DNA from: a virus
IMG/VR virus record: IMGVR_UViG_3300017964_000010
Coordinates: 1-64,000 of that record
Strand: one strand, 5' to 3'
DNA: 64,000 bases
Below, one piece after another: positions 1 to 59,675 of the stretch (positions within the stretch are counted from its first letter, which is position 1; each line of letters opens with the position of its first letter). Below the pieces are notes generated by a model. It ran no database searches. It was given only the letters and a program-made list of their open reading frames with translations, and had not been told where the DNA came from. The position numbers were made by a program, and so were the translations under genes.

Positions 1-878
1 CCTGTACCCACTCTTGTATCAAAGATTGCATTTGTCGCGCCTGTTTTTGTACAATACAGCCAAGTCTCAAATGTCCAACTACCAGTGCCAAAACCAAATC
101 CTGCATCATTAGGTATTGCAAGGAAATCCCCAGACCCATCAAAATGATTGCTATACCCCCCATGCCTGTACGGACTAAATGTGCCAGCATGAGTATCACC
201 GTTGACTGTAATAGTATGATTACTAGTAGACTCGTCAGTTATGTTATTATTGTCTGAGGTTCCAGTTGCTGTTGCTAGTAAAGTTGTATACCTACTGTTT
301 TCTATAATAGTAATAAATCTCAAGGTAAATGATGAAACTGAAGGTAGAATATTTACTCCATCACTGGCTCTAAAGGTAATCGACCCAGTTAATTCAGCAC
401 CTTCTCCAACTTCTGAAACTGTTTTAGGAGTGATAGTAAAGACACTTGAATCTTGACTGATAGTAGCCATCGAGTCCATAGATCCAGCAGTTACATAAGA
501 ATATGATATGGGAAGACCGTCTGGATCTGAAGCGGCTAATGTAATAATAGTAGCATCCTGTGGGCTATCAGCATCCAACACATAAGATGACAAAGGTTGT
601 CCACCAGAATCCCATGTTGGAGTGGTGTTAATAAGGGCTATATTGTACCAACCCGATCCATTCCAGATGTAAAGTCTATTTGATGATTGTACAAAAGCTT
701 GATCTCCTATTTCGTTACCAGTATTTGGGAGTAAATCTGGTGATGCAAAATCTCCAACAGAAGCTTCATCTACTGCAGATGCAATTGTTGCAGGAGTAAC
801 ACTTGGATTTGATGTTATTTCAGAAAGTATAGGACTTTCTATCATAGATTTTGCTAAAAGTCTTGCTTTACTTGGCAT
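1..878 (-). CDS. LamG/concanavalin-A-like domain virion adhesin, paralogue of 886..3354 (runs off window start; not in ORF track)
   Basis: Manual translation from ATG at 878: MPSKARLLAKSMIES...LPNTGNEIGDQAFVQSSNRLYIWNGSGWYNIALINTTPTWDSGGQP...HAGTFSPYRHGGYSNHFDGSGDFL...WTFETWLY. Open to base 1 and closely matches the neighbouring gene's N-terminus. Confidence 0.85.
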   Translation of the reverse strand, partial: MPSKARLLAKSMIESPILSEITSNPSVTPATIASAVDEASVGDFASPDLLPNTGNEIGDQAFVQSSNRLYIWNGSGWYNIALINTTPTWDSGGQPLSSYVLDADSPQDATIITLAASDPDGLPISYSYVTAGSMDSMATISQDSSVFTITPKTVSEVGEGAELTGSITFRASDGVNILPSVSSFTLRFITIIENSRYTTLLATATGTSDNNNITDESTSNHTITVNGDTHAGTFSPYRHGGYSNHFDGSGDFLAIPNDAGFGFGTGSWTFETWLYCTKTGATNAIFDTRVGT

Positions 879-6865: not shown

Positions 6866-9800
6866 CTAATTTACTACTGTTTTATTTGATACTACTTTAA
6901 CTGTTCCTGTACCACTTGCCTTTATTAGTTTTAATTGAATTTGACCACCATTTTCTACTACATCAATTATACCAAGATCACTATCATTGGCAAAAGTACT
7001 TACTGTACCGTACTGAGTACTAAATACCTGGGATTTATTATATGTAGCAAGTAGTTTGGTTATCTGAGTATGACCTAAACTACTATCTTCCATATGAACG
7101 GTGTATTCAATTGACTTAAAGTTATTACTATGTATTGTTCTATCAAATATTGTTGCTGTGCTAGCAGTTACTGAAGTGGTGGTAGTTCCTGTTGATCCAG
7201 AAGATCCTGCATCTGCTGCAGCTTTAGTAGTAAAGATAGAAATTTCATCACCAGAATCTCTGGCTTCAAAGAATGTTAGACTAGAACTATCGGTATGAGT
7301 ATAATCAACCCCTTTTGTAAGAGTAATACCATTGGCAGTAACTATTGTAGCGGTTGTTACATCATATGATAGAATACCGCCTTCTATATCCGAACCACTA
7401 AATACGGTTTGACCTGCTATTGCAACAAAACTATACCCAACTAATGATCCTCCTCCGGAGCCGGATCCACTTCCTCCTCCAGATCCAGTAATTGATAAAA
7501 TATAATCTGAATCAATTATACTTGTAATATATGAAGAATCTATTATTGCAAGAACTTGAGCAGAATCAACAGTTGAAATTCTTGCATTAATATAAGCAGA
7601 GTCAATAATATTAATATAATCAAATTGTGGGCTTCTAGCAAGAATATAGGCTGAATCAACCATTGCTTCTACAGCGTCTGAATCAACACCTTGAGGTACC
7701 ACTCTTGCTTGTACATAAGCCGAGTCGATAATACTAATATAATCAAATTGTGGGCTTCTAGCAAGAACATAGGCTGAATCAACTAAAGTTGATACTCTAT
7801 CATCTGTATAATATAAGTTTGATCCTTCAAGAAGATCATCAGTTGTTTTAGTTGCTAATCTTAAATCAAAGTCAGCATTTGCTCTTACTGTAGTATAGTA
7901 TAAATTTGTTAAACCTTCAGTAAGATCATCAGTTGTTTTAGAATTAAAGTCAGAATCAAATCCTAGATATTTACCCGATATGCTTCCGACATTTAGTGCA
8001 GCAAGAGTAAATCCTGTGCCATTTCTATTAATAGTAGCTGTTGGATCACTGTCATCGAGAGCAGCATCATCTAATCCATTGAATATATAATATTCACTAT
8101 TTGTTGCATCTCTAAAGAAACCGGTATGTTCTTTTGTAGTGCCACCATCTGGAGAATAATGCCCAATAAAGCCAATATCTACGGCATCGGATAGTTCATT
8201 ATTTTTTCCAAGATGAATCATTGGATCGTCAATACCCAGAGTTTGAGTATTAAGAATTGTTTGTGTACCATTTACAGTAAGATTGCCTGATACTACAAGA
8301 TCAGAAAATTCTACACTGTCACCATTTAGAATAATTCTATTCCAGGCAGATCCAGTAGAAACATATGGTTTGTTGTCGGTGTTTATTACTGCAAACATAC
8401 CTTTATGACTACTTGCAGTAGGCAGAGAAGAAATGTTTGAATATGAATTTCTATATAAAATCTTATGTGGACCAAAGTCCACATCTCTAATTCCTATTCC
8501 AGTAAGTAATTGAGTATAGGAAGAATCAACAATATTTTTAATATAAGCGGAATCAGCAACACTCTTAATATAATCAGAATCAGCATTAAATCTAATCCAG
8601 GACCGATTAGCTGCAGTTTTAATATAATCTGAATCAGCATTAAATCTAATCCAAGACTGATTAGCTGCAGTTTTAATATAATCTGAATCAGCATTAAATC
8701 TAATCCAAGACCGATTGGCTGCCGTTTTAATATAGTCGGAATCGGCGGCTGTTTTAATGTAATCGGAATCAGCATTAAATCTAATCCAAGACTGATTTGC
8801 TGCCGTTTTAATATAGTCGGAATCGGCTACTAATTTAATATAATCGGAGTCCGCTATTGATTTAACATAATCTGAATCAACTATGTTTTTAAGAAAATCT
8901 GGAGTAATTGCAGTTTTAATATAATCTGAATCAGCGGCTGCTCTTATATAATCTGTATTAATTAACTGTGTTGTTAGATTTGAATCAATTAAAATTTGTC
9001 TATCTCTAACAAAATCAGAATCAAATATACCAAGTATGTCTGCCCCGTTTAGCTGTATTTCTGTAGCATTAAATGTACCGTTTACATCAAAATCTACAGC
9101 TGGAACTGTAGTTCCAATACCAACATTTTTACTGCCGTTATAGTAAATGTAAGCAAAATCTTCAGTAAATACGGTTGTTGGAGAGAAAGGCACTCCATTA
9201 AATTGAAGTTGACCATTATTACTAATATTCAGATTACCTTGAATTTCAGTTGTACCACCAACTTTAAGCATATTACCAAAGCCTGGTATATCGGCTGTTA
9301 CACCAATACCAACACTTGGAGTGCCGCCAGCTGGAGTTGCAGTAAGAGATGATCTTCCTATGATGTCAAATCCAAATGCAACACCGTCGCCCAAAGCCCT
9401 ATCAATCATAACTTGGGCCTCAGCTGAATCCAAGAATAAAGTATCATCTAATCTACTGTTAATATAACCTTCGTCAATTACAGTAAGATAAGTTTGACCT
9501 GCTGTAAAGCCAAACATTTGTTGACGGGCAGTTACATAAGCTGAATCAAAGTATTCTTCTGCACTATCTGGTCCAATAAAGTATTGATTTTCATGATGTT
9601 CAATATAAACATCACCAAGAGAATCTTCACTCGGAATAAGTAAATCACCATTTAGATATAATTTACCAGTATAATTAATACTTCCGTCAACATCTAATTT
9701 ATACTTACTTGAGTTTATTGGCTGTCTACCAATACCAATACCGCCAGATATTGTTGTGTAAAGATCATTTGAAATAGGATCACTATAGAAGAAGAATGGG

Positions 9801-12800
9801 TGAGTCATAGTAGCTCTGAGATACGGAATATCTACAATATTCTGTACATAAGGAGCATCTATAATTCCTTCAACGTATGCATTGTTTACAACATCATCCG
9901 TAATATATTGACTAATTCTCTTTCCGTGTCTCCAGTAATCTCCAAAGACACCAACGTGAACATTTCCGTATATATCTACATCATATGCCGGATCTGCAGC
10001 AGCTTGACCGATGGCAACCTTACCGCCCATTATAGATAATGTATTGGGTTCATTTACTGTACCAGATACAGATGAAGATAGACCAATTCCAACTGAATTA
10101 TTGCCGTTAACAGTAATTCCGCTACCAATTGCAATTGATCTAAATGCAGAAGATATACTATTAGCACCAAATGCTAAACCACCATTTGATACTGTTAGAT
10201 TTTCACCAAACCCTAAACCGCCAGATGAAGCAGATATGTTATGGCCAAATGCCATTGGATCATCAGTACCTGTTGATCCATCTGTAGTATTACTGTAACC
10301 AAATGCGTAGCCAGTTCCGAGAGTTGTTGTATTGCCGCCACCATAAGCATAGCCGCCATTTGCTACAGTATTTCCTACACCATAAGCATAACCATTATCT
10401 ACAGAAGTGTTTCCGTACCCAAATAAGAAACCATTTCTAGTAATAATATTATTAGTACCAAATATATAACTTGTTCCACTCGGACCTGTAGAACCGGTAT
10501 TACCACTACCATAAATATTAACTTGTCCGTTATTGGTATTTAAATGCCCAAATATATTAACACCGGAATTGTTGGAGTTACTATTACCATAAATTCTAAC
10601 AGTACCTCGGGTATTGACTGCATTGGAAGGTGAATTATTAGTATTACCCCATCCAAAAACAGAAACACCGGCCCAGTAACCATTATGTCCGCTGTTATTT
10701 CTACCTACAAAAAGACCATTGTAGTTATTACTTCTATTATTATCACCAACAATTACTAAGCCACCATAATAACCGTTTCCATTATTACTACCGCCTATAA
10801 GTATACTTCTTGGTCCCGCATTATTACTTGCACCAATAGCAACACCGCCACCGTATGCAGCTGCAGTATTACCAGAACCAATAGCAACACCGCCCCAGTT
10901 GGTAGAATTGCTTCTACCTATACTGGTACCACTTTGGGTTGCATCTGATGTTGTACCAATTGAAACACCACTTAGATTAGATGATACTGATGAACCAATT
11001 GATTTACCACTATTAGATGAAGTATTACTAACACCAATTGAAACACCGCTAGTGTTTGCAGTCAAAGATGTACCAATTGCAACACCACCATTTGATGAAG
11101 ATGCTACTGTACCTATAGAAGTTGAACTATAGGAAGTTGCTGATCTACCAATTGAAACACCACTTAGGTTAGATGGTGATAATCTACCAATTGAAACACC
11201 ACTATTACTTGCACGTTGATCAAGTCCTATAGAAACTGATGCAGTGGTTGTTGTTGAAGATACATCTTTACCAATTGAAACACCGCTATTACTGGTTATT
11301 GATTTACCAATTGCAACAGCATTTGCAAAGTTGTTATTTACAATATTTTCACCAATTGAAACCGACCCTGCAAAGTTCTGGTTGTGGTATATGTTAGCAC
11401 CAATACCAACACCATCTTGAGATGGGTTATCAATCGTATTACCAATTGCAACAGCATTAGTTCTAGGTAATATTGCATTTCCGGCTTTTACATCATAACC
11501 AAGGGCTAAAGAATAATCTGTAGCTAATGTATTATAACCTATACCAACCGATGCTCTTCCAACTTCAGTATCATCCCAAGTTACGGTTGTTCCATCTACT
11601 GCACCAACTCTAAATGCTCCCCTTTGGGGTATCCACATCATCCGAGCACCGGCATTAGTTCCATATCTAGGATTAATTGTAAAATCTGGAATTACATTTG
11701 GTGTTGTTATAGCAACTCCAGCACTATCCCAATCACCATGATAGAAAATTGCATTACCACTCTTTACAAAGAATTTAGTATCACTATCACCAAGGACCAT
11801 ATCCTGTGGTTCACCAATAACAACTGCACCACCAGCATCATAATATATTTGTTGATTACCGACAGCATCATTATTATAACTCCAAACACTTTGAAGTCTA
11901 TTACCGATATAATTTGAATCAACAATTCTTTCTATATTTGAATCAAAAGATAAACCACCAGGACCATAATACATTGTAACATTTGAATCAAAGGTAAATG
12001 ATCCGACTGTTGCATTAACTGAAACGGGACCTGTAAAACTAGTTGAACTTGAAATTAGATTATTAGCCGTTAGAGTATCAACTGTGGTATGATATCCATT
12101 ATTAACAGTTACATTACCATTAAATGTTGCTGGGCCAAGTAGTGAAAGAGAAGTTGTTACTTTAGGTGATTTATCATCAATTCTAAATATATCATTTAGT
12201 GCTACTGAAGTTGCATCATCTGTAAATGATACAGTATTTGCATCAATAATACTAAATGTGCCACCATATCCAGATTTTGGATTTTGTAAAGAGTCTAGGA
12301 GACCTCCTGCACTATAAACGGTGTTAATATTAAGATTATCACCATTTATATCAAGACCCGTAAATGTAATTGTAGTAGGAAGTGTTCTAAGATTTACATT
12401 TAAAGATAGATCAGCCGAATCAACAGCATCTTCATAAACTCTAAAGGAATTTGGATTTGCAAAGAAGTAATCGGAAGATGAAAGAACCTGTGAATCACCT
12501 AAACTATCAATTCTATATACTTCGACAAATCTCTGTTCTGGAGGTGTTGGAAAATAGAAAGCTTCAAATTCAGAATCAGTATTTACATTAAGAGCTGCTA
12601 TCAAAGCTCCTTGACTTAATGTATTTAAATTATTAGATAATAATGAAGAAGTTATCTGGAAGAAATAATCGCTATCAACTGTAACTTGTGTTCCAGAAAT
12701 ATTAACTGGACCGCCGGTTACTGTTAGTCCGCTATCAAATCTTCCAACACCAGCAACGTGAAATTTAGTTACTGGCTGATCTGTTCCAATACCAACATTT

Positions 12801-15800
12801 ACATTTCTAACATTTGGATAAGTGCCAAAGAATAGTGTGTTATCTCTCCTTTGCCATTCAGAACTATCATTAGCTGCAGAAAGAATATATGAACTATCAA
12901 CAATTGATTTTATATAAGCTTCATCAATAAACGATGCAAGTGTAGCTGCATTTAAAACAACTCTTGAACTAACATAAGCATTATCTATTATTGATGCAAG
13001 ATAATCTTCTGTCGGCCATTGTCTAACTTGACCTAGACTATTTCTTATGCTTATAGGGCTATTGCCGGCATTGTCGTCCAAGTAATCATTAGCATCTTCA
13101 ATAAGAATTGGTGCTTTACCTATATTTCTTACAGACAGAGCTAAAGTATGATCTGCTAATAAAGTAGGTGTTAATTCAGAAGGTTGAAGACCACCTAGTA
13201 ATGATTTTACACTACCTGAAGGTTTATAGTAAAGAGCATCTGGATGTGCTTGCCAGAATGCATCATTAGAAACTCTTGCTTGGACATAATCAGTATCCAA
13301 GAAATCTATCATTGTAGGTATTACTAAGTTGCCTGGACGGATAACGTGACTATCAAATGATAGACCACCAATAGTAATAGCACTTCCGCCTAATGTAAAT
13401 GCTCCTCCAACGGTAATACCTTGTGAATCAAATCTAAAGTTTTTGTTACCAGCTGTACTTGTAAAGGCTAAATCACCACTAAATGTAACACCTTGTGAAT
13501 CAACTCTTAAGTTTGTACCATCACCTCCGACAAAAAGATCACCAAGGACATTTAAATTCGGACTAAGAACTCTTGGTGGTGTATATGGCACAGAAAGAAC
13601 ATCACCAGCATCACCAAAATCAAATCCATCAATTATTGTTATATTACTATCAATCAGACCTCCTGATATAACTGGAGGACCACCATGAGAATCTCTGCGA
13701 AGAGCAAACTGGAATGAATCAATTGGATCAGCAAAGTAGAAAATTGTATCTAAATTATTTCCTGCATTTGTTGTTAATTCGGTTAAAGGAATATTAGAAA
13801 GTTGTATGGCTTTGGTTAAATCTGGATCAAAAGTACGAACAGGATGACCTGTGTTTTTAACATATAATTCGTGATCATAAGGTACTTTAATTCTTACTGC
13901 ATTAGTAATAGCACCAATAGTATGATCAAACTGAATTGAATCAATTCCTGTGCCTATTATAGATCCAGTTCCAAATCCTGGTCCGACTGATGTAGTACTA
14001 CCAAACCCAAGATAATCTTGAATTGTTTTTGGTCCAAAGTATATCGTTGCTCCGCTATCAACTCTTATTGAACCAGCGACATCAAGAGCATAATCAGCAT
14101 TATTTTTACCTATTGCAACTTTAGTATTGTCGAGAGAACTATCATTAGCTGCAGAAGTATTTAATATAATATGATCAGATTTATTATTAGCTGTTACATT
14201 TCTACCAATTATAAATGTATTTGTAGTATTACCTTTTATAAGGTTATCTTCACCAAGTATAAAGTTATTAGAACCAGTAGCTATACTATCAAGAATATTA
14301 TTCGTACCTATAAATGTAGTGTAACTTCCTTTCAAACTTGTGAATGATAAATCACCGCCGCGGCTAATATTATTTTCATTACCAATAGCTGTACTATAAA
14401 GACCAGATACGGCGTTATTTCTTCCTAATGCAATAGATCCAAAACCTAGTTTTTCATTTGATAATTGATTATCAAAATCCGAGAATCTACCAACTCTAAA
14501 TAATTCTAATTTTGGCTGATATGTTAAAAGATTAACATCACCGGCAATAAATGGAATTGAATCCATTAGTTGTGCATCTGTAACGGTAAATGTGCCGTCT
14601 GTAATACCACTTACAGCAAAACCTTCTTGTGCTAAAATATCAAGATCATAAGTAGCAATTTTATTAATTCCAAGAGGTTTAGGAACATTTGTAGAATCTA
14701 CAACGGCATATCTAACAGCTTCACCTTCATCTACAAATGGTGTTGTACTTTGATAGACACCAGGAGCCCCTTCTTGCAAAAGTTCTCCTGCTAATATGAT
14801 ATTGCCTTTTACATAAAGGTTTCCGTCATAATTATTAAATTTATCACCAGAATCACCAATAATTACGTTACCATAATTAATAGCTAAAATTCTTTCTGAG
14901 TGAACATTCATAGGAACATTAGATAGGTTGATACCTATGGCATTATCTGCACTAGAATCTATTCTAATATTTCTACCAATACCAGTAGCATTATCACCAT
15001 GTATTCTAATGTCCGTACCAAGTGCTACACCAAGATTTGCATCTATAAAGTTATTATCTCCAAATGCATAGGAAGGTGAACCTTTTAATATATTTGCGCT
15101 GCCTACAGCATAAGCACCACCACCAGTTATGGTATTATAGGTACCTATTGCATAAGAACCAGAGGCAGCTGTTGCACTTGCAGTTGTTCCAATAGTATTA
15201 TTGTAACCGAATACACCAGCTAAATTACCATTTACATTATTTTCAGTACCAATACCTATGACACTAGTACCATATAAATGATTTTCTTTACCAATACCAA
15301 TTGCAAATTGTGTACTACCAATAGGGACAGATGAATCGACTGTAACATCAGTACCTATTAATATAGTACCCGTATTATTTGCCCTAGTTTTAGTTCTTCT
15401 GCCTAAAGCTATAGAATAATCCGCTTCAGCTTCTGTTAAAGAACCTATAGCTAGTGATGCTAAACCTTTTGCTCTAGTTGCTTCACCAAATGCGGTAGAA
15501 AATAATCCAATATTACCTTGAATATAATCTCCAGAGGGCCCACCTCTAAAGTAGCCGCCTCTTGTAGCACCTTTTGATGTAATATATGTAAATCTTGATC
15601 CATTACTATCATCCATATAAGAAGCCATTGGACCAGCAAGAGTATTGAGAGCATAAACAATACCTGTAGAATCAATTTGGCCTCTTACAGATATATCTCC
15701 AATAACGTCCAATTTATATTTTGGAGTATCCGTTCCAATTGCAACTCTACCATAAGATTGTAAAGATATTGCATATGGATCAGTAATATCAGATAAAGGA

Positions 15801-18337
15801 ATATTATAAGCAGCATCTGCAGTTGGTTCATTTTTTATAAAAATACCACCACCGGTAAAGATAGAACCATCTTTATAAATATTTCCAGTGAAGTTTATAG
15901 AACCGTCTTTTCTTACTTCAAAAAGTGTACTATCATAACGAGCTAAAACTTCAATAACATTAAATGAGTCAGAGTTCGGAGCATTTTTTGCTAGTGAAGA
16001 TTTAAAGATATTTTCATGTGCAGTAGATACCAATTTAGCAGAATCAGTAAATATTTCTAAACCATAAAAGTCTCTTGGTGCAGAAATATTAGACGGTAGT
16101 GTCCAAGTTGATGGAGCATAATATGTGCCAAACTGTGCAGTTGTAAATCTACCTAATTGAATATCGCCGGTAGCAATAATTTTACCGGTATTATCATCAA
16201 CATTAAATCTATAGTATCCTGAATCATATAATTTTTGAAAGGATGTTGCAAAACCGTCATTAGTGATAATACTACTAACATGATTACCGTATTTAAGACC
16301 TTCGGTAAATCCAATTGAATCATTATCACCTGAAGTTAAAATATAACCTGGATATAAAGATGTTAGTTTTACATCTCTTGCAACCAAGTCTTTTTCTACA
16401 GTAACTTGACCATTACTAAGATCAAAACTTAAAGAAGAATCAGAAGTTAAAGTGCCGTTATTATCTATTATTGCAACTGTATTTGGTTTAAAATTACCAA
16501 ATGCACCAGTTAATTTGCCAGTAATATGTAAATTACCTATGGTTGCAGAGTCAATAGTAATTGCTGCTATTTTTGCTGAATCTGCATAAAAGTGTTTAAA
16601 ATTTCCTGAATCAATTCTAAGTACACTTATATCTGCTGAATCTGCATCTAAATATGGAGTAATAATTCCAGATCCAGAAACAGTTAAATTGCCAGATCTT
16701 AAAACATTAATATCAGCAGAATCTATATTAGCATAATTAGATGTTAACTTATTTGTAGTAATACTATCTGCCTGTATTCCAGAAAGATAAATATTTCTCC
16801 ATCTCTGATCTGAACTACCAATATCAAATGCAAGGCTTGTATTAGGTATTAAGTGAGAATTAATATCACCACTAAAAACTATATTATCTTCGTTGCTGTC
16901 ACCAAGATAAATATTACCGCCTGTTGCTGATTTTATTGTAGCATTACCGGATACGGTAAGGTCTCCACCTACGGAAAGATTGCCTTTTATATGAGCACTA
17001 TCTACAGTAAGACCACTAATTCTTGCTAAATTGATGTCTGCTGAATCAATATCTGCATACTCTATACCAGCGCTATCTATGGTTGCTCTTGTAATATCAG
17101 CATAAATAGAAGTAAGATCCGTTATAATACCACTATCTGCATATATTGCAGGAACATCTATATCTTTATTAAATACCCATCTATCAGGTGTAGCTTCATA
17201 AGTTATTTTAGCGTTGGCTGCAAATACTGTAATACCGGCACCATCTGCTTGACTTGAATCTTGAGCAGAGTCTGCAAGAACAATATTTTTATCATTAACG
17301 GTAACTGTAGTTGAGTTTACTATTGTCTCAGTACCATCAACCTGTAAATCGCCTTTAATAATAACTTTACCAGTATTATCTCCTACAGCAGCAGGATCTA
17401 TAACAAAGATTTGAGGCCCATTTATTTGACCAGTGATATTTAAAATATCAATTTGTGCAGAATCAATATAAGCATGTTTAATATCTGCTGAATCAATATA
17501 AGCTGTAATAATTCTTGTTAAATCTACATCAGAAGAATCTATATCTGCATAATTGATTCTAGCAAGAGTAATATCAGCTGAATCAATGTCTGTATGATCT
17601 ATATCTGCATATCTAATATAAGCAGAATCAATTTCCGCATTGGTAATTCTAGCAAGAGTAATATCTGCTGAATCAATAATTGCGTGTAAAATATCTGCAC
17701 TATCAATATAAGCAGTAATAATATCTGCCATAATAATATCTGCTGAATCAATATAAGCATGACCAATATCTGCAGAATCAGCATAAAGAGCAGTAAATCT
17801 ATTTCCTAGTTTACCAATATATCTTGCACCAACAATAAATATTTCATTTCCATCAAGCCCGGCTGGAAGATTATCACCAATAAAGTTAAGTACACCAGAT
17901 TGATAATCAAAGAAAAATTCATCATTATTACCAGAACCAGCAGCAAATATTCTAGTCCCAGAAGTTTGTGGATCCGTTGTACCAGAAGGTGCAATATAAA
18001 CTTTTACAGCATAAGTGGAACCAAATTGCGGAGGAATCCAATTAGTTAAATTTGTTTTCCAAGTTCTATTAGGGGTTGCAGTAGTATCTTTTACTGCTTC
18101 TATTGAAGAAGATCCATTTCCGCTATCATCATAAATTTCAATAATGCCAATACTTAAACTAGGTAGTATATTAGGTATTTGATAAGCATCAGTCCATAAA
18201 TTATTTCCGTCCAAAAGTAAAGGACTTGCAATTGCTTCGTTTGTAGCAGTTTTAATTGAATTGATATCTGTCTTTGTTGCTCCGTAACCAAGCTTTTTCC
18301 AAAGAAAGTCTATCTTTTGATTGTCACTTATTGACAT
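6866..18337 (-). CDS. Giant (3823 aa) tail fibre/adhesin with YadA-head-like repeats and Asp-Ser repeats
   Basis: Uninterrupted 11.5-kb ORF with (A/S)V(A/S)IG and xFG repeats, VGIGTxxP fibre motifs, GNLTVNGTQT motifs, and IDSADI and ADSDYIK repeats. Confidence 0.8.
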   Translation of the reverse strand: MSISDNQKIDFLWKKLGYGATKTDINSIKTATNEAIASPLLLDGNNLWTDAYQIPNILPSLSIGIIEIYDDSGNGSSSIEAVKDTTATPNRTWKTNLTNWIPPQFGSTYAVKVYIAPSGTTDPQTSGTRIFAAGSGNNDEFFFDYQSGVLNFIGDNLPAGLDGNEIFIVGARYIGKLGNRFTALYADSADIGHAYIDSADIIMADIITAYIDSADILHAIIDSADITLARITNAEIDSAYIRYADIDHTDIDSADITLARINYADIDSSDVDLTRIITAYIDSADIKHAYIDSAQIDILNITGQINGPQIFVIDPAAVGDNTGKVIIKGDLQVDGTETIVNSTTVTVNDKNIVLADSAQDSSQADGAGITVFAANAKITYEATPDRWVFNKDIDVPAIYADSGIITDLTSIYADITRATIDSAGIEYADIDSADINLARISGLTVDSAHIKGNLSVGGDLTVSGNATIKSATGGNIYLGDSNEDNIVFSGDINSHLIPNTSLAFDIGSSDQRWRNIYLSGIQADSITTNKLTSNYANIDSADINVLRSGNLTVSGSGIITPYLDADSADISVLRIDSGNFKHFYADSAKIAAITIDSATIGNLHITGKLTGAFGNFKPNTVAIIDNNGTLTSDSSLSFDLSNGQVTVEKDLVARDVKLTSLYPGYILTSGDNDSIGFTEGLKYGNHVSSIITNDGFATSFQKLYDSGYYRFNVDDNTGKIIATGDIQLGRFTTAQFGTYYAPSTWTLPSNISAPRDFYGLEIFTDSAKLVSTAHENIFKSSLAKNAPNSDSFNVIEVLARYDSTLFEVRKDGSINFTGNIYKDGSIFTGGGIFIKNEPTADAAYNIPLSDITDPYAISLQSYGRVAIGTDTPKYKLDVIGDISVRGQIDSTGIVYALNTLAGPMASYMDDSNGSRFTYITSKGATRGGYFRGGPSGDYIQGNIGLFSTAFGEATRAKGLASLAIGSLTEAEADYSIALGRRTKTRANNTGTILIGTDVTVDSSVPIGSTQFAIGIGKENHLYGTSVIGIGTENNVNGNLAGVFGYNNTIGTTASATAASGSYAIGTYNTITGGGAYAVGSANILKGSPSYAFGDNNFIDANLGVALGTDIRIHGDNATGIGRNIRIDSSADNAIGINLSNVPMNVHSERILAINYGNVIIGDSGDKFNNYDGNLYVKGNIILAGELLQEGAPGVYQSTTPFVDEGEAVRYAVVDSTNVPKPLGINKIATYDLDILAQEGFAVSGITDGTFTVTDAQLMDSIPFIAGDVNLLTYQPKLELFRVGRFSDFDNQLSNEKLGFGSIALGRNNAVSGLYSTAIGNENNISRGGDLSFTSLKGSYTTFIGTNNILDSIATGSNNFILGEDNLIKGNTTNTFIIGRNVTANNKSDHIILNTSAANDSSLDNTKVAIGKNNADYALDVAGSIRVDSGATIYFGPKTIQDYLGFGSTTSVGPGFGTGSIIGTGIDSIQFDHTIGAITNAVRIKVPYDHELYVKNTGHPVRTFDPDLTKAIQLSNIPLTELTTNAGNNLDTIFYFADPIDSFQFALRRDSHGGPPVISGGLIDSNITIIDGFDFGDAGDVLSVPYTPPRVLSPNLNVLGDLFVGGDGTNLRVDSQGVTFSGDLAFTSTAGNKNFRFDSQGITVGGAFTLGGSAITIGGLSFDSHVIRPGNLVIPTMIDFLDTDYVQARVSNDAFWQAHPDALYYKPSGSVKSLLGGLQPSELTPTLLADHTLALSVRNIGKAPILIEDANDYLDDNAGNSPISIRNSLGQVRQWPTEDYLASIIDNAYVSSRVVLNAATLASFIDEAYIKSIVDSSYILSAANDSSEWQRRDNTLFFGTYPNVRNVNVGIGTDQPVTKFHVAGVGRFDSGLTVTGGPVNISGTQVTVDSDYFFQITSSLLSNNLNTLSQGALIAALNVNTDSEFEAFYFPTPPEQRFVEVYRIDSLGDSQVLSSSDYFFANPNSFRVYEDAVDSADLSLNVNLRTLPTTITFTGLDINGDNLNINTVYSAGGLLDSLQNPKSGYGGTFSIIDANTVSFTDDATSVALNDIFRIDDKSPKVTTSLSLLGPATFNGNVTVNNGYHTTVDTLTANNLISSSTSFTGPVSVNATVGSFTFDSNVTMYYGPGGLSFDSNIERIVDSNYIGNRLQSVWSYNNDAVGNQQIYYDAGGAVVIGEPQDMVLGDSDTKFFVKSGNAIFYHGDWDSAGVAITTPNVIPDFTINPRYGTNAGARMMWIPQRGAFRVGAVDGTTVTWDDTEVGRASVGIGYNTLATDYSLALGYDVKAGNAILPRTNAVAIGNTIDNPSQDGVGIGANIYHNQNFAGSVSIGENIVNNNFANAVAIGKSITSNSGVSIGKDVSSTTTTASVSIGLDQRASNSGVSIGRLSPSNLSGVSIGRSATSYSSTSIGTVASSSNGGVAIGTSLTANTSGVSIGVSNTSSNSGKSIGSSVSSNLSGVSIGTTSDATQSGTSIGRSNSTNWGGVAIGSGNTAAAYGGGVAIGASNNAGPRSILIGGSNNGNGYYGGLVIVGDNNRSNNYNGLFVGRNNSGHNGYWAGVSVFGWGNTNNSPSNAVNTRGTVRIYGNSNSNNSGVNIFGHLNTNNGQVNIYGSGNTGSTGPSGTSYIFGTNNIITRNGFLFGYGNTSVDNGYAYGVGNTVANGGYAYGGGNTTTLGTGYAFGYSNTTDGSTGTDDPMAFGHNISASSGGLGFGENLTVSNGGLAFGANSISSAFRSIAIGSGITVNGNNSVGIGLSSSVSGTVNEPNTLSIMGGKVAIGQAAADPAYDVDIYGNVHVGVFGDYWRHGKRISQYITDDVVNNAYVEGIIDAPYVQNIVDIPYLRATMTHPFFFYSDPISNDLYTTISGGIGIGRQPINSSKYKLDVDGSINYTGKLYLNGDLLIPSEDSLGDVYIEHHENQYFIGPDSAEEYFDSAYVTARQQMFGFTAGQTYLTVIDEGYINSRLDDTLFLDSAEAQVMIDRALGDGVAFGFDIIGRSSLTATPAGGTPSVGIGVTADIPGFGNMLKVGGTTEIQGNLNISNNGQLQFNGVPFSPTTVFTEDFAYIYYNGSKNVGIGTTVPAVDFDVNGTFNATEIQLNGADILGIFDSDFVRDRQILIDSNLTTQLINTDYIRAAADSDYIKTAITPDFLKNIVDSDYVKSIADSDYIKLVADSDYIKTAANQSWIRFNADSDYIKTAADSDYIKTAANRSWIRFNADSDYIKTAANQSWIRFNADSDYIKTAANRSWIRFNADSDYIKSVADSAYIKNIVDSSYTQLLTGIGIRDVDFGPHKILYRNSYSNISSLPTASSHKGMFAVINTDNKPYVSTGSAWNRIILNGDSVEFSDLVVSGNLTVNGTQTILNTQTLGIDDPMIHLGKNNELSDAVDIGFIGHYSPDGGTTKEHTGFFRDATNSEYYIFNGLDDAALDDSDPTATINRNGTGFTLAALNVGSISGKYLGFDSDFNSKTTDDLTEGLTNLYYTTVRANADFDLRLATKTTDDLLEGSNLYYTDDRVSTLVDSAYVLARSPQFDYISIIDSAYVQARVVPQGVDSDAVEAMVDSAYILARSPQFDYINIIDSAYINARISTVDSAQVLAIIDSSYITSIIDSDYILSITGSGGGSGSGSGGGSLVGYSFVAIAGQTVFSGSDIEGGILSYDVTTATIVTANGITLTKGVDYTHTDSSSLTFFEARDSGDEISIFTTKAAADAGSSGSTGTTTTSVTASTATIFDRTIHSNNFKSIEYTVHMEDSSLGHTQITKLLATYNKSQVFSTQYGTVSTFANDSDLGIIDVVENGGQIQLKLIKASGTGTVKVVSNKTVVN
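8518..8945 (-). repeat. Intragenic tandem array of 27-bp (ADSDYIKxx) and 54-bp (ADSDYIKTAAN(Q/R)SWIRFN) units
   Basis: Four copies of AAN(Q/R)SWIRFN interleaved with about ten (A/V)DSDY(I/V)K units. Confidence 0.9.
17455..17782 (-). repeat. Degenerate 5-aa-period repeat (IDSADI...) near the N-terminus of the giant fibre
   Basis: Nine DS units spaced 10 or 15 aa apart with hydrophobic residues every 5 aa. Confidence 0.8.
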
Positions 18338-57753: not shown

Positions 57754-57950
57754 AAAAATTGTACCTCCACTACTTCTTTTTCTTTCATCAAAGTAACGAC
57801 CCTAGCTTTGCTATGCTTACCCCTTACGTGAACTTCAAACCATTCCCTGGCTTCCGTTTCAGTCTCGCAAACTACTGCAACCCACTCAGGCAATTCACTC
57901 TTGACTGCTTGGCACATAGTGCTGAATTGTGTTGTTACCGTCCAAGTCAT
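57750..57950 (-). CDS. Hypothetical protein
   Basis: ATGA-type overlaps on both sides; GAGGA SD. Confidence 0.6.
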   Translation of the reverse strand: MTWTVTTQFSTMCQAVKSELPEWVAVVCETETEAREWFEVHVRGKHSKARVVTLMKEKEVVEVQFL

Positions 57951-58081
57951 TTGTTAAGCATCCTCATACAAGTTAAAACCGAGTTTTCTTCTAGGCAGTC
58001 GCTCCACACATAGTAAGTATAGTAGCCAAAGCCTGTGAAAAATACTAGTGAGCAAGCAATAATAATCAAGTTTTTAGTCAT
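57947..58081 (-). CDS. 44-aa membrane peptide (not in ORF track)
   Basis: MTKNLIIIACSLVFFTGFGYYTYYVWSDCLEENSVLTCMRMLNK*, with AAGGAG SD. Confidence 0.7.
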   Translation of the reverse strand: MTKNLIIIACSLVFFTGFGYYTYYVWSDCLEENSVLTCMRMLNK

Positions 58082-58086
58082 TTTTA

Positions 58087-58280
58087 AACTCCTTTCAGCA
58101 TACGCCTGAGCTAGTATCTCCAATCTCTCCGCACGGCCTTATTGACATTGCCGCTCTAGTTTGATTGAAACTAACATCCATGGTTTTCACGTCACCGATA
58201 TTTCGCGGGCGAATATATTCACCAGAGATAGTGCTTTTAGCTGATCAACGCCTCCACACAGACGTATGCTGAAAAGAGTC
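58087..58280 (-). ncRNA. Unassigned structured RNA (22-bp closing stem, multibranch interior)
   Basis: 58280-58259 pairs fully with 58108-58087 (19 Watson-Crick + 3 G-U on the minus strand); several internal hairpins; 46% GC by hand count. Confidence 0.65.
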
Positions 58281-58287
58281 TTTAAAC

Positions 58288-58590
58288 TCAATCCCATTCA
58301 TTATCATACCTTATTGTTTCAAACATTGTTTCTCCATAGTGTTCTTTTGCATATTTGGACCCATCAGTCCAATAATTTGGATTTTCACCATCTTTTATAT
58401 TTAAGATAGTAAGAGGATCCTTACGGTTCTTACGTGCTTTTAACATAACGGAACGAGCTTTTTTACCTTTCTCTTTAATCTCATTCATTTTAATTTGACG
58501 AGCACGGTCGGCTTTCTTTTCTGCTTTACGTCTTTCTGCAATCTCTTTGATGAGAGTAAGACGTTCGGTTTGTGTTTTAGCTATAGTCAT
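58288..58590 (-). CDS. Basic hypothetical early protein (start revised to 58590)
   Basis: The ORF-track 5' extension overlaps the promoter; ATG 58590 follows GGA. Confidence 0.65.
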   Translation of the reverse strand: MTIAKTQTERLTLIKEIAERRKAEKKADRARQIKMNEIKEKGKKARSVMLKARKNRKDPLTILNIKDGENPNYWTDGSKYAKEHYGETMFETIRYDNEWD

Positions 58591-58617: not shown

Positions 58618-58656
58618 AATATAGTATAATTTTAGGGGCTTGTAAACCCCTAAAAT
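58618..58656 (-). promoter_or_regulatory. Early promoter TTTACA-N17-TATATT with the -35 inside a 10-bp inverted repeat (ATTTTAGGGG..CCCCTAAAAT)
   Basis: IR arms at 58629-58638 and 58647-58656. Confidence 0.65.
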
Positions 58657-58662
58657 CAATTT

Positions 58663-59430
58663 TTAAGAGAAAAAATCATCTATAATATTAAAGGCATCTT
58701 CAATACTAAGTTGACTATTAATTCCATATGTTTCACGATTCCCAGTTTTTTCAATATCTTTATCCATTATATCATAATGGCTTAAAAATTCGAATATCTG
58801 TTCTTTGCGATATGCAATCTTATCTTTCTCTTGAGCTTGTATTTGAAATCTAAAATGTTTTATGTTTCCATCGGATGCAACCAAAATATTTGGTTGTAAT
58901 TGTTCACGAGTGGAAAAACTAAGCCAAGTCATTTCAGATTTAATTTCTACAACTGTAAGCCGTCCTTTTAGTTTTTCATAGTTTTCTATATACCATTCAG
59001 GTAAAGCTTCAAAATTATCCTTCTGTGATGAAGTATAAACATTGAAAAGTTCGGAAAATTTAGCCATTTTAAAACACTCCTTATAGTGGCCAGACACACT
59101 GTTATCCGATGGTGTGTACGATGAAATAAGATATGATTCAAGAAGAAATGATTGAGCATCTTTTTTTCTATCAAAATCAAATCTTTCAAGATTTTTAGCT
59201 ATAATATAAAGATCATTTATATCATAGTCCTTTTCTTTAATGTGCTGTATTGCACGATTACGATTACCTTTACCTATATATTGCCATTTGCCATCTTTTA
59301 AATAGCCGTAGACATATTGGCCTAAAGTTTGCCAAAAATCCATAGGTGCGCTATTCAGAAACGGTGCAAACTTAACATTTTTTCTTGGCAGAACCTCTAC
59401 AGCACCTGGAAGTCCAAAAAAAGCACTCAT
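58663..59430 (-). CDS. GIY-YIG-like (LEM-3 type) nuclease domain protein
   Basis: QYVYGY...YIGKGNRNRAIQH...ESYLI...N.VSGH. Confidence 0.6.
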   Translation of the reverse strand: MSAFFGLPGAVEVLPRKNVKFAPFLNSAPMDFWQTLGQYVYGYLKDGKWQYIGKGNRNRAIQHIKEKDYDINDLYIIAKNLERFDFDRKKDAQSFLLESYLISSYTPSDNSVSGHYKECFKMAKFSELFNVYTSSQKDNFEALPEWYIENYEKLKGRLTVVEIKSEMTWLSFSTREQLQPNILVASDGNIKHFRFQIQAQEKDKIAYRKEQIFEFLSHYDIMDKDIEKTGNRETYGINSQLSIEDAFNIIDDFFS

Positions 59431-59432
59431 CA

Positions 59433-59675
59433 CTATCCCCAATCTTTTCTGTCTTGTTCATTATCATAACCATATTCATAGGCTTCAATTTCACCAATAG
59501 TCATGCTATCTCTTTCTATTCTTTCAGAAGTAATAGAAGCACCAACATAATAATGAGGATCAAAACCGCGGCCGTAATAACGATCTGCACTACCACGATC
59601 CTGAGGAGAACCGTGCCGTGGAAGCTTATCTGTTACAATTTTATCGTCCATATAAGGATTAGCTACTTTTTGCAT
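59433..59675 (-). CDS. Conserved hypothetical phage protein
   Basis: RHGSP.DRGSADRYYGR...PHYY...EIEAY..GY...KDWG. Confidence 0.7.
   Translation of the reverse strand: MQKVANPYMDDKIVTDKLPRHGSPQDRGSADRYYGRGFDPHYYVGASITSERIERDSMTIGEIEAYEYGYDNEQDRKDWG

What the first reader, a model, noticed from the sequence alone, without database searches (positions are those of the whole stretch)
58082..58287. 194-nt structured intergenic RNA whose closing stem sequesters the next gene's ribosome-binding site
Seen: this is the longest non-coding gap in the window, 46% GC against AT-rich flanks. On the minus strand 5'-GACUCUUUUCAGCAUACGUCUG pairs over all 22 nt with CAGGCGUAUGCUGAAAGGAGUU-3'. The three non-Watson-Crick positions are all G-U on this strand, which points to RNA-level selection. 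Inside are AGCUA/UAGCU and UAUCUC/GAGAUA helices and hairpins AUAU(A)UUCGC-CC-GCGAAAUAU, UAGUUU-CAAUC-AAACUA and GCGGC-loop-GCCGU. The unpaired GUUGAU could pseudoknot with GUCAAU in the last loop. The 3' arm contains the AAGGAG SD of a 44-aa membrane peptide heading an operon with MazG-like and exonuclease genes. Inference: a riboregulator/riboswitch, an RNase III-excised small RNA, a 6S-like decoy (similar length), or a type I toxin-like locked mRNA. I cannot assign it to a known family.
Basis: partly seen in the sequence, partly recalled or inferred. Interest (0 to 1): 0.72.

Follow-up and report, generated by a model that had tools for sequence, protein, structure and literature searches.

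The report
Marine-phage folded RNA masking ribosome site
The 194-base gap holds a real, strongly conserved folded RNA from an uncatalogued family carried once per genome by many uncultured marine phages. One of its loops seems built to pair two copies together, and in this phage its closing stem also hides the ribosome-binding site of the next gene.

Summary
Window 58087-58280 (minus strand) folds into a multi-branched RNA closed by a 22-bp stem. Its three non-Watson-Crick pairs are all G-U, and its 3' strand carries the GGAG of the next gene.

It is not a private riboregulator. It belongs to a family of at least 111 distinct sequences (136-221 nt) in IMG/VR and ocean or salt-marsh metagenomes. 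There is one copy per phage genome. Rfam 15, GenBank phages and 185,579 bacterial and archaeal genomes hold no match.

One hairpin loop always carries a self-complementary word (GGCC, GAUC, GUAC, CCGG, UGAUCA, CCGGCCGG). That points to kissing-loop self-pairing.

About a quarter of loci lie in tRNA clusters, with a tRNA starting 4-7 nt after the RNA. Others are followed by terminators or promoters. So the RNA is most likely a free-standing stable RNA.

In 28 contexts, this one included, the 3' arm reads GGAG, and 24 of them have an ATG 6-8 nt later. Elsewhere the arm is not a Shine-Dalgarno (SD) site and the 5' arm compensates.

The function is unknown. This scan had already found the family on other DNA.

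The parts
58087..58280 (-). The whole RNA element (194 nt), a member of the uncatalogued family modelled as R1
   Evidence: cmsearch gives 153.5 bits, E = 3.5e-36, and it is the only hit in the window. It is also the single copy in the 74-kb record.
58260..58280 (-). P1 5' strand (GACUCUUUUCAGCAUACGUCU; A58281 can add one more pair)
   Evidence: Alignment columns 1-21 pair with 217-237. 99.4% of cells are paired, and 9 of 19 pairs show changes on both sides.
58087..58107 (-). P1 3' strand (AGGCGUAUGCUGAAAGGAGUU). It contains the SD GGAG at 58092-58089.
   Evidence: The predicted unpaired probability of GGAG is 0.002 or less.
58231..58259 (-). P2 (GUGU/GCAC) with the P2a hairpin. The loop GCGUUGAUCAG carries the self-complementary word UGAUCA at 58242-58247.
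   Evidence: Columns 35-38 and 36-37 are complementary in 62 of 62 sequences, each with 4 pair types. There are 15 distinct loops in A1, and 14 hold a Watson-Crick palindrome.
58176..58229 (-). P3 (AUCUC/UGGAU in this copy, AUCUC/GAGAU in the family consensus) with a 44-nt optional insertion domain.
   Evidence: All 5 P3 pairs change on both sides. P3 is absent in the 136-140-nt members and is a plain tetraloop hairpin in the 150-155-nt members.
58111..58174 (-). Long arm: P4 (UUAGU/ACUAG), P5 (UUCAAUC/GAUUGGA, with a GAU bulge), P6 (CU/GG) and P7 (GCGGC/GCCGU)
   Evidence: RNAalifold consensus. 99.5-100% of cells are paired, with compensatory changes in P4, P5 and P6.
58139..58149 (-). P7 loop AAUGUCAAUAA, invariant in the family apart from one Y
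   Evidence: Invariant columns in A1. Part of this invariance is circular, because the retrieval pattern was taken from this hairpin.
58079..58081 (-). ATG of the 44-aa hydrophobic ORF (57947-58081), 7 nt after GGAG
   Evidence: The same GGAG-to-ATG spacing of 6-8 nt is seen in 24 of 28 GGAG-type contexts.
58288..58290 (-). TGA stop of the upstream 100-aa basic ORF (58288-58590), 7 nt before P1
   Evidence: In at least 25 contexts an upstream ORF stops between 2 nt inside P1 and 18 nt before it.
58276..58289 (-). Small hairpin GAGUU-UAAA-GACUC that competes with the first 5 bp of P1. The word GAGTTTAAA recurs at 58083-58091.
   Evidence: The hairpin is weak, -3.8 kcal/mol. The 9-nt direct repeat is the longest of 53 contexts, but the family shows no excess over cross-locus controls.
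58618..58646 (-). Best sigma-70-like promoter match of the region (TTTACA-17-TATATT), overlapped by a stem-loop. It could drive the 100-aa gene, the RNA and the downstream genes.
   Evidence: This is a consensus match only, and the count of such matches is not above shuffles.

Best explanation
The stretch is a gene for a stable, non-coding, structured RNA of a new family carried once per genome by uncultured marine and salt-marsh myoviruses.

Shown:
- A conserved four-way-junction fold.
- A closing helix (P1) of about 20-22 bp.
- An invariant apical loop on a long arm.
- A short hairpin (P2a) whose loop always holds a self-complementary word.

Inferred:
- The RNA is cut out of polycistronic transcripts. 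In tRNA clusters RNase P cleavage of the tRNA that starts 4-7 nt downstream would set its 3' end. Elsewhere host RNase III acting on the roughly two-turn P1 helix is the likely enzyme.
- Two copies, or more, dock through the palindromic P2a loop.
- It therefore acts as a free RNA particle, in the manner of other phage RNAs found beside tRNA islands, and not as a sensor for one gene.

In this window, and in about 45% of contexts, the RNA sits exactly between the stop codon of one gene and the start of the next. There the 3' strand of P1 has been recruited as the SD of the downstream gene. The folded RNA locks that SD. Translation of the 44-aa peptide gene should therefore need P1 to be cleaved or to be opened, for example by the ribosome terminating 7 nt upstream.

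What the RNA does for the phage is unknown.
For: Family and fold:
- 106 IMG/VR stretches and at least 118 metagenome stretches hold the core hairpin. About 100 plus 73 of them are full members at 104-170 bits (most 120-170; three hits cut off at a contig end score about 104), against 18-32 bits on the opposite strand.
- There are 111 distinct sequences.
- On a MAFFT alignment made without structure, 97.8% of cells pair (shuffles 90.5 +/- 0.3, slid partners about 40%). 25 pairs change on both sides, and 0 of 500 shuffles reach this.
- G-U cells number 490 against 15 A-C cells, so selection acts on this strand.

Free-standing RNA:
- In 18 of 74 loci it lies in or beside tRNA clusters on the same strand, with the next tRNA 4-7 nt away in 9 loci.
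- Terminator hairpins or TTGACA-N17-TATAAT promoters follow it in other loci.
- Five 150-275-kb genomes each hold one copy.

Self-pairing:
- Columns 35/38 and 36/37 are complementary in 62 of 62 sequences, with GC, CG, AU and UA at the adjacent central pair, which cannot pair within one molecule.
- There are 15 distinct loops in A1, and 14 carry a Watson-Crick palindrome where about 9% is expected.
- UGAUCA and GGCC loops are swapped between backbones 94-98% identical.
- The extra loops found in metagenomes are also Watson-Crick or wobble palindromes.

SD use:
- 24 of 28 GGAG-type contexts have an ATG 6-8 nt later, opening at least 7 different genes.
- 34 contexts lack GGAG and then have a tRNA, a terminator or a gene with its own SD.
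- The pair at columns 5/233 is C-G in 28 sequences and A-U in 28.
- The SD's unpaired probability is 0.002 or less.
- Upstream stop codons lie between 2 nt inside P1 and 18 nt before it.
Against: - There is no direct evidence that the RNA accumulates. Four salt-marsh metatranscriptome assemblies cover the flanking genes at depth 2-4 but not this copy of the element.
- Dimerisation is inferred from sequence only.
- RNase III cleavage is untested, and the carrier phages encode no RNase III of their own.
- Modelling a ribosome parked on the stop codon frees the SD only partly (unpaired probability 0.01-0.37).
- The invariance of the P7 loop is inflated, because homologues were retrieved with a pattern from that loop.
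- Divergent relatives keep only P1 and P2/P2a, so the family's true borders are not mapped.
Confidence: 0.6

Rival explanations
1. It is a cis-acting translational regulator, such as a riboswitch, thermometer or protein-operated switch. Its job would be to open or close the SD of the downstream operon (44-aa peptide, MazG, exonuclease).
For: The SD is fully buried in P1. The core is highly conserved, as in riboswitch aptamers. An upstream mini-hairpin could compete for the first 5 bp of P1. The GGAG-to-ATG arrangement recurs in 24 contexts.
Against: The downstream genes are unrelated to one another. In 34 of 62 contexts the arm is not an SD and the RNA is followed by tRNAs, terminators or promoters. 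The same downstream gene (MRTVHYVG...) occurs both with the SD inside P1 and with its own SD outside it. No alternative fold is conserved. No Rfam riboswitch matches.
Confidence: 0.1
2. It is a self-cleaving ribozyme or dedicated processing element that cuts polycistronic tRNA and mRNA transcripts.
For: About 56 invariant positions lie in a compact four-way junction. It sits inside tRNA precursors and between cistrons.
Against: No known ribozyme class matches, even at E up to 10. Nothing in the data points to a cleavage site. The palindromic loop is not explained by this idea.
Confidence: 0.08
3. It is a mobile DNA element of the MITE type, with 20-bp terminal inverted repeats. The RNA fold would be a by-product.
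For: The termini are near-perfect inverted repeats. Its position relative to neighbouring genes differs between related phages. In this window a 9-nt direct repeat, GAGTTTAAA, brackets it. A possible GIY-YIG endonuclease gene lies 0.4 kb upstream.
Against: There is one copy per genome. There is no family-wide flanking duplication: mean longest shared word is 4.43 within loci and 4.35 in cross-locus controls. The bias of 490 G-U to 15 A-C, and compensatory changes in internal helices, show selection on one transcribed strand. It always lies on the strand of the neighbouring genes and tRNAs.
Confidence: 0.05
4. It is a decoy or sponge RNA that binds a host or phage protein. One candidate is the basic 100-aa protein encoded just upstream in this and several related loci; another is a host defence sensor. 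The palindrome would then be a protein-dimer site and not an RNA-RNA contact.
For: The apical loop AAYGUCAAUAA is invariant, and the same hairpin occurs in the 3' UTR of an unrelated gene in other phages. That suggests a shared recognition module. A K/R-rich 100-aa ORF precedes the RNA in at least 9 contexts.
Against: No partner gene is universal. The palindromic word changes completely (GGCC, GAUC, GUAC, CCGG) while staying self-complementary. That is what base pairing predicts, and it is not what a fixed protein site predicts. No TROVE/Ro gene is present in 5 carrier genomes.
Confidence: 0.12

Closest known systems
GOLLD (RF01998) and ROOL (RF03087) RNAs
   Same: They are phage- or prophage-encoded structured RNAs of unknown function, often beside tRNA islands. 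They form RNA-only homo-oligomers held by kissing loops and A-minor contacts whose intermolecular pairs covary (PMC12286853).
   Different: They are 500-800 nt with many pseudoknots, against 136-221 nt here. There is no sequence or structure match. Here oligomerisation is only inferred.
manA RNA motif of marine cyanophages
   Same: It is a short RNA (under 200 nt) of marine phages, first taken for a cis-regulatory element upstream of genes. It is now reported to assemble into 8-, 10- and 60-mers (bioRxiv 10.64898/2026.07.01.735769).
   Different: No Rfam family, and manA is listed in Rfam to my knowledge, matched the window or 14 related loci at gathering score, or this element at E up to 10.
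T4 rnaC and rnaD (species 1 and 2 stable RNAs)
   Same: They are small stable RNAs of unknown function, encoded in the tRNA cluster of a T4-type phage and spaced a few nt from a tRNA.
   Different: Model R1 finds nothing there (best 11.8 bits). rnaC has a tRNA-like T arm and this RNA does not. T4's RNAs have no 20-bp closing stem.
HIV-1 dimerisation initiation site (kissing-loop palindrome)
   Same: From my own knowledge, it is a hairpin loop with a 6-nt self-complementary word flanked by purines, and the word differs between lineages (GCGCGC or GUGCAC) while staying palindromic. Here the loops read A-GGCC-A, AA-CCGG-A, U-UGAUCA-G and so on.
   Different: It comes from an unrelated molecule and biology. 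The words here are 4-8 nt, and dimerisation has not been tested.
RNase III processing stems (pre-rRNA stalks, T7 intercistronic R sites)
   Same: From established knowledge, a double-stranded stem of about two turns, formed by sequences flanking a structured RNA or lying between cistrons, is cut by host RNase III. Cutting it can free a downstream SD. P1 here is 20-23 bp and lies between cistrons.
   Different: Cleavage is not shown. P1 is a perfect helix, without the internal loops typical of T7 sites.
Correia and other MITEs co-transcribed with neighbouring genes
   Same: They have terminal inverted repeats that fold into an RNase III-sensitive hairpin within mRNAs (from my own knowledge).
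   Different: This RNA is single-copy, has no family-wide target duplication, is under strand-specific G-U selection and has a conserved complex interior.

Membership tests
Any Rfam 15 family (riboswitches, ribozymes, 6S, tmRNA, manA, GOLLD, ROOL and the rest) | The covariance model scores at or above the family's gathering score | tested here: not met
   There were 0 hits in the window. Within the element, the only match at E up to 10 was a chance hit of 17 bits against a cut-off of 60. In 14 related loci only tRNAs scored.
New family defined here (model R1) | Full-length match to the P1-P7 consensus on the transcribed strand | tested here: met
   153.5 bits, E = 3.5e-36, model positions 1-150 of 150.
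New family defined here (model R1) | Self-complementary word in the P2a loop | tested here: met
   UGAUCA at 58242-58247. 62 of 62 family members are complementary at columns 35/38 and 36/37.
Riboswitch or cis-regulatory leader | Consistent association with one functional class of downstream genes | tested here: not met
   At least 7 unrelated downstream genes, plus tRNAs, terminators and promoters.
Riboswitch or cis-regulatory leader | Expression platform (SD or terminator) conserved with the aptamer | tested here: not met
   GGAG is present in 28 of 62 contexts. In the rest the arm is AUAGU or GUAGU, with a compensating 5' arm.
GOLLD / ROOL class of ornate phage RNAs | Phage-encoded and near tRNA islands | tested here: met
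   18 of 74 loci lie in or beside tRNA clusters. This window itself holds no tRNA.
GOLLD / ROOL class of ornate phage RNAs | Forms an RNA-only homo-oligomer | not testable with these tools
   Only the palindromic loop covariation speaks for it.
T4 rnaC/rnaD | Sequence or structure homology | tested here: not met
   cmsearch with filters off on the T4 tRNA region gave a best score of 11.8 bits, not at rnaC or rnaD.
RNase III substrate | Uninterrupted double-stranded RNA of about 20 bp or more | tested here: met
   P1 is 22 bp here (23 with A58281-U58086) and 20-21 bp (19-21 pairs) in the aligned family consensus, 22-23 bp where the flanks add pairs.
RNase III substrate | Cleavage in vivo or in vitro | not testable with these tools
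   The metatranscriptome contigs are uninformative.
MITE-like mobile element | Multiple copies per genome | tested here: not met
   One copy in each of 5 genomes of 150-275 kb and in the window's own record.
MITE-like mobile element | Target-site duplication | tested here: not met
   This window has a 9-nt repeat, but the family shows no excess over controls.
Y RNA / YrlA with Ro | Co-occurring TROVE (Ro/Rsr) protein | tested here: not met
   PF05731 is absent from 5 carrier genomes, and the control genomes respond. The host's complement is unknown.
Type I toxin-antitoxin locked mRNA | The small hydrophobic ORF is always downstream of the locking structure | tested here: not met
   The 44-aa gene lies upstream of the RNA in L012 and L007-L010, and is absent in L003 and L082.

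The most novel reading that the evidence does not exclude
A small (136-221 nt) phage RNA assembles with itself through a lineage-specific 'kissing code', and so forms an RNA-only dimer or higher particle during infection. The loop word is swapped between otherwise near-identical RNAs but always stays self-complementary. The same RNA can be spliced seamlessly between two cistrons because its closing helix supplies the SD of the next gene. Translation of that gene then becomes coupled to folding or excision of the RNA.
Probability: 0.35. Interest if true: 0.8.

Novelty: new variant of a known kind. Interest (0 to 1): 0.62.

Why it matters
This is a common marine-phage RNA: at least 111 distinct sequences, from Tara Oceans, coastal and salt-marsh samples. 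It is single-copy and very strongly conserved, yet it is absent from Rfam, from cultured phages and from cellular genomes. Its job is unknown.

It joins a small group of phage RNAs found beside tRNA islands (GOLLD, ROOL, manA) that have recently been shown to build RNA-only assemblies. It is much smaller than GOLLD and ROOL, and its predicted contact is simple and easy to mutate. That makes it a tractable model for asking what such particles do.

The subset with the SD inside the stem also shows how a structured RNA gene can live inside an operon without polar effects. That gives a direct reporter assay.

Tried and rejected
- Rfam, at gathering and E-value thresholds: nothing.
- BLAST against 50,697 GenBank phage records, with 1 kb and with the element alone at E up to 1: no match.
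- Bacterial and archaeal genomes: 16 pattern hits, where about 4 are expected by chance. None is a full member.
- T4 rnaC/rnaD homology: none.
- Antisense of the invariant loop (TTATTGACR, which resembles a -35 box): not enriched in the window, 60 matches against 55 +/- 7 expected.
- Target-site duplication: not a family feature.
- Phage-encoded Ro/TROVE and RNase III: absent from 5 carrier genomes.
- RNA evidence: six metatranscriptome runs hold 17-25% of the words. Laying four of them showed low-depth contigs over the flanking genes, and over the insertion domain of relatives, but none over this copy of the element. One contig ends at 58094, just 5' of GGAG. A single contig end is not evidence.
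- Ribosome-footprint modelling: the SD is only partly freed.
- Pfam and PHROGs on the 100-aa, 44-aa, 66-aa and 68-aa neighbouring ORFs: no families.
- The catalogue of 8,495 IMG/VR candidate RNAs (PMC10690425) could not be checked, because its supplementary files are not held. Parts of this RNA may be listed there without a name.
- The ORF-free stretch at 457-885 turned out to be an open-ended coding frame.

Full report
**The observation**

On the minus strand the gap between the TGA of a 100-aa ORF (58288-58290) and the ATG of a 44-aa hydrophobic ORF (58081) holds a 194-nt element, 58087-58280.
- Its ends pair over 22 nt, with 19 Watson-Crick and 3 G-U pairs and a duplex energy of -35.9 kcal/mol.
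- The stretch folds far better than shuffles: -72.3 against -53.8 +/- 4.5 kcal/mol, z = -4.1.
- GGAG (58092-58089) lies in the 3' strand, 7 nt before the ATG. Its predicted unpaired probability is 0.002 or less.
- It is the largest ORF-free stretch of the window, once the open-ended frame at 3..878 is recognised.
- Its G+C is about 0.45, above most of its surroundings.
- The window otherwise encodes baseplate and tail proteins of a large myovirus. Its exonuclease is most like those of T4-like cyanophages, at 45-53% identity.

**It belongs to a large family**

No Rfam family matches. No GenBank phage matches.

Loci fetched through the MazG gene showed homologues of the element in different gene contexts.

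I built covariance model R1 from 62 distinct sequences.
- It scores about 100 IMG/VR copies and 73 metagenome copies at 104-170 bits (most at 120-170 bits; three hits cut off at a contig end score about 104). The opposite strand scores 18-32 bits.
- There are 111 distinct sequences of 136-221 nt.
- Five genomes of 150-275 kb each hold exactly one copy, and so does the window's own record.
- None of 16 pattern hits in 185,579 bacterial and archaeal genomes is a full member.
- DNA runs holding this exact phage come from salt-marsh and seawater metagenomes.

**The fold**

On the MAFFT alignment, which was made without structure, RNAalifold gives these helices:
- P1, the 20-21-bp closing stem.
- P2, with a small hairpin P2a.
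- A long arm, P4-P5-P6-P7.

I added P3, a hairpin that is absent in the 136-140-nt members, plain in the 150-155-nt members, and extended by a 44-nt insertion in this window.

Counting pairs gives 97.8% of cells paired, against 90.5 +/- 0.3 in shuffles and about 40% with slid partners. 25 pairs change on both sides, and 0 of 500 shuffles reach any of the five measures. G-U cells outnumber A-C cells 490 to 15, so one strand is under selection.

**The self-complementary loop**

Earlier notes of this scan, on other genomes, said that one loop always carries a self-complementary word. I tested this on my own alignment.
- Columns 35/38 and 36/37 of the P2a loop are complementary in 62 of 62 sequences.
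- The central pair of adjacent bases, which cannot pair within one molecule, takes four types: GC 33, AU 17, CG 8 and UA 4.
- There are 15 distinct loops. 14 hold a Watson-Crick palindrome at the same place: GGCC, GAUC, GUAC, CCGG, UGAUCA, CCGGCCGG or CCGUACGG. The fifteenth (GGCU) is a wobble palindrome. About 9% would be expected by chance.
- The further loops found in metagenomes are also Watson-Crick or wobble palindromes.
- UGAUCA and GGCC loops are exchanged between backbones that are 94-98% identical, in at least two backbone groups.

This is what a kissing-loop homodimer contact predicts. It is not what a fixed protein site predicts. In the window the word is UGAUCA, at 58242-58247.

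**Context**

In 18 of 74 loci the RNA lies in or beside a tRNA cluster on the same strand. In 9 of those loci the next tRNA starts 4-7 nt after it. In other loci it is followed by a terminator hairpin or by a TTGACA-N17-TATAAT promoter. This is the behaviour of a stable RNA gene processed from polycistronic transcripts, not of a leader for one gene.

The nearest known parallel by context is T4's rnaC/rnaD, but there is no homology.

GOLLD and ROOL are likewise phage RNAs near tRNA islands, and they form RNA-only cages through kissing loops (PMC12286853). The short manA RNAs of marine cyanophages are reported to form 8- to 60-mers (bioRxiv 10.64898/2026.07.01.735769).

**The Shine-Dalgarno question**

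Among 62 distinct contexts, 28 have GGAG in the 3' arm.
- 24 of the 28 have an ATG 6-8 nt further on.
- That ATG opens at least seven different genes: the 44-aa peptide, a 66-aa protein, MazG, a 68-aa MRTVHYVG... protein and others.
- Of the other four, one is cut off by the contig end, one has only a short ORF and one has a disrupted ORF.

The other 34 contexts read AUAGU or GUAGU, with the 5' arm changed to GACUA. The pair at columns 5/233 is C-G in 28 sequences and A-U in 28. These RNAs are followed by tRNAs, terminators, or genes with their own SD a few nt further on. The same MRTVHYVG... gene is found with both solutions.

So the SD is a real, recurrent secondary use of P1 and not the reason the RNA exists.

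Upstream ORFs stop between 2 nt inside P1 and 18 nt before it in at least 25 contexts. In operons the RNA therefore sits exactly between stop and start.

How the buried SD is exposed is inference. The candidates are host RNase III cutting the two-turn P1, or a terminating ribosome melting its base. A simple footprint model frees the SD only partly. The carrier phages encode no RNase III.

**Rivals**

- The MITE reading is weakened by the single copy number, the strand-specific G-U bias, and the lack of a family-wide flanking duplication. This window does have a 9-nt repeat, GAGTTTAAA.
- A new ribozyme class, or a protein decoy, cannot be excluded.
- No Ro/TROVE gene accompanies the RNA.
- The invariant loop's antisense word is not enriched in the window.

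**Limits**

- There is no proof of expression as a discrete RNA.
- Homologues were retrieved with a pattern from the P7 loop, so its invariance is partly circular.
- Divergent relatives that keep only P1 and P2/P2a exist: the L007-L010 short form, and the tandem second copies in L095 and L099. The family is therefore wider than mapped here.
- An IMG/VR catalogue of unnamed candidate RNAs could not be checked.

**Verdict**

The finding is real and it is a member of a new, widespread phage RNA family. The likely primary nature is a self-pairing stable RNA of unknown function.

Noticed in passing
L112:1434-1560 (also L120, L124, L136, L137, L152, L164): The same hairpin, GCGGCAAUGUCAAUAAGUCCGC with an identical loop, occurs in the conserved 3' UTR of an unrelated 339-aa gene. 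That gene has only a weak AAA_16 hit, below the Pfam cut-off. The hairpin lies just before an intrinsic terminator, so it may be a portable recognition module.
   Followed up: partly
L095:420-530 (-), L099 about 5880-5995 (-), L007-L010:3841-3986: There are shorter, divergent relatives of 100-146 nt that keep P1 and the P2/P2a palindromic hairpin (CCGG) but replace the long arm. Two of them lie in tandem, 3-7 nt after a full-length copy. This hints at a wider superfamily.
   Followed up: partly
window 58663-59442 (-): A 259-aa ORF carries a YGY...YIGKG motif. It matches solved 'GIY-YIG domain-containing protein' chains of similar length only weakly (E = 0.033) and has no Pfam hit. It may be a Seg-like homing endonuclease, sited next to the RNA much as segB sits in T4's tRNA cluster.
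   Followed up: partly
window 58618-58656 (-): A stem-loop, AGGGG-UUUACAAG-CCCCU, overlaps the -35 box of the best promoter match (TTTACA-17-TATATT). Similar GGGGTTGACA cassettes follow the RNA in L094 and L103. This recalls the promoter-stem-loop cassettes said to mediate gene shuffling in T4-type phages (from my own knowledge).
   Followed up: no
window 58083-58091 and 58281-58289: A 9-nt direct repeat, GAGTTTAAA, lies just before the element and again overlapping its 3' end. It is the longest such repeat among 53 contexts, but the family shows no excess over controls.
   Followed up: yes
window 58288-58590 (-); L086:1836-2120: A K/R-rich ORF of about 100 aa, ending ...YDN(E/D)WD, has no Pfam or PHROG family. 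It immediately precedes the RNA in at least 9 contexts and could be an RNA-binding partner.
   Followed up: no
L086:2322-2528 and many other loci: A 68-aa ORF, MRTVHYVGM..., is the most frequent gene directly downstream of the RNA. It has no Pfam family.
   Followed up: partly
window 6866-18337 (-): A very large ORF of 3,823 aa lies among the tail and baseplate genes. It was not examined.
   Followed up: no
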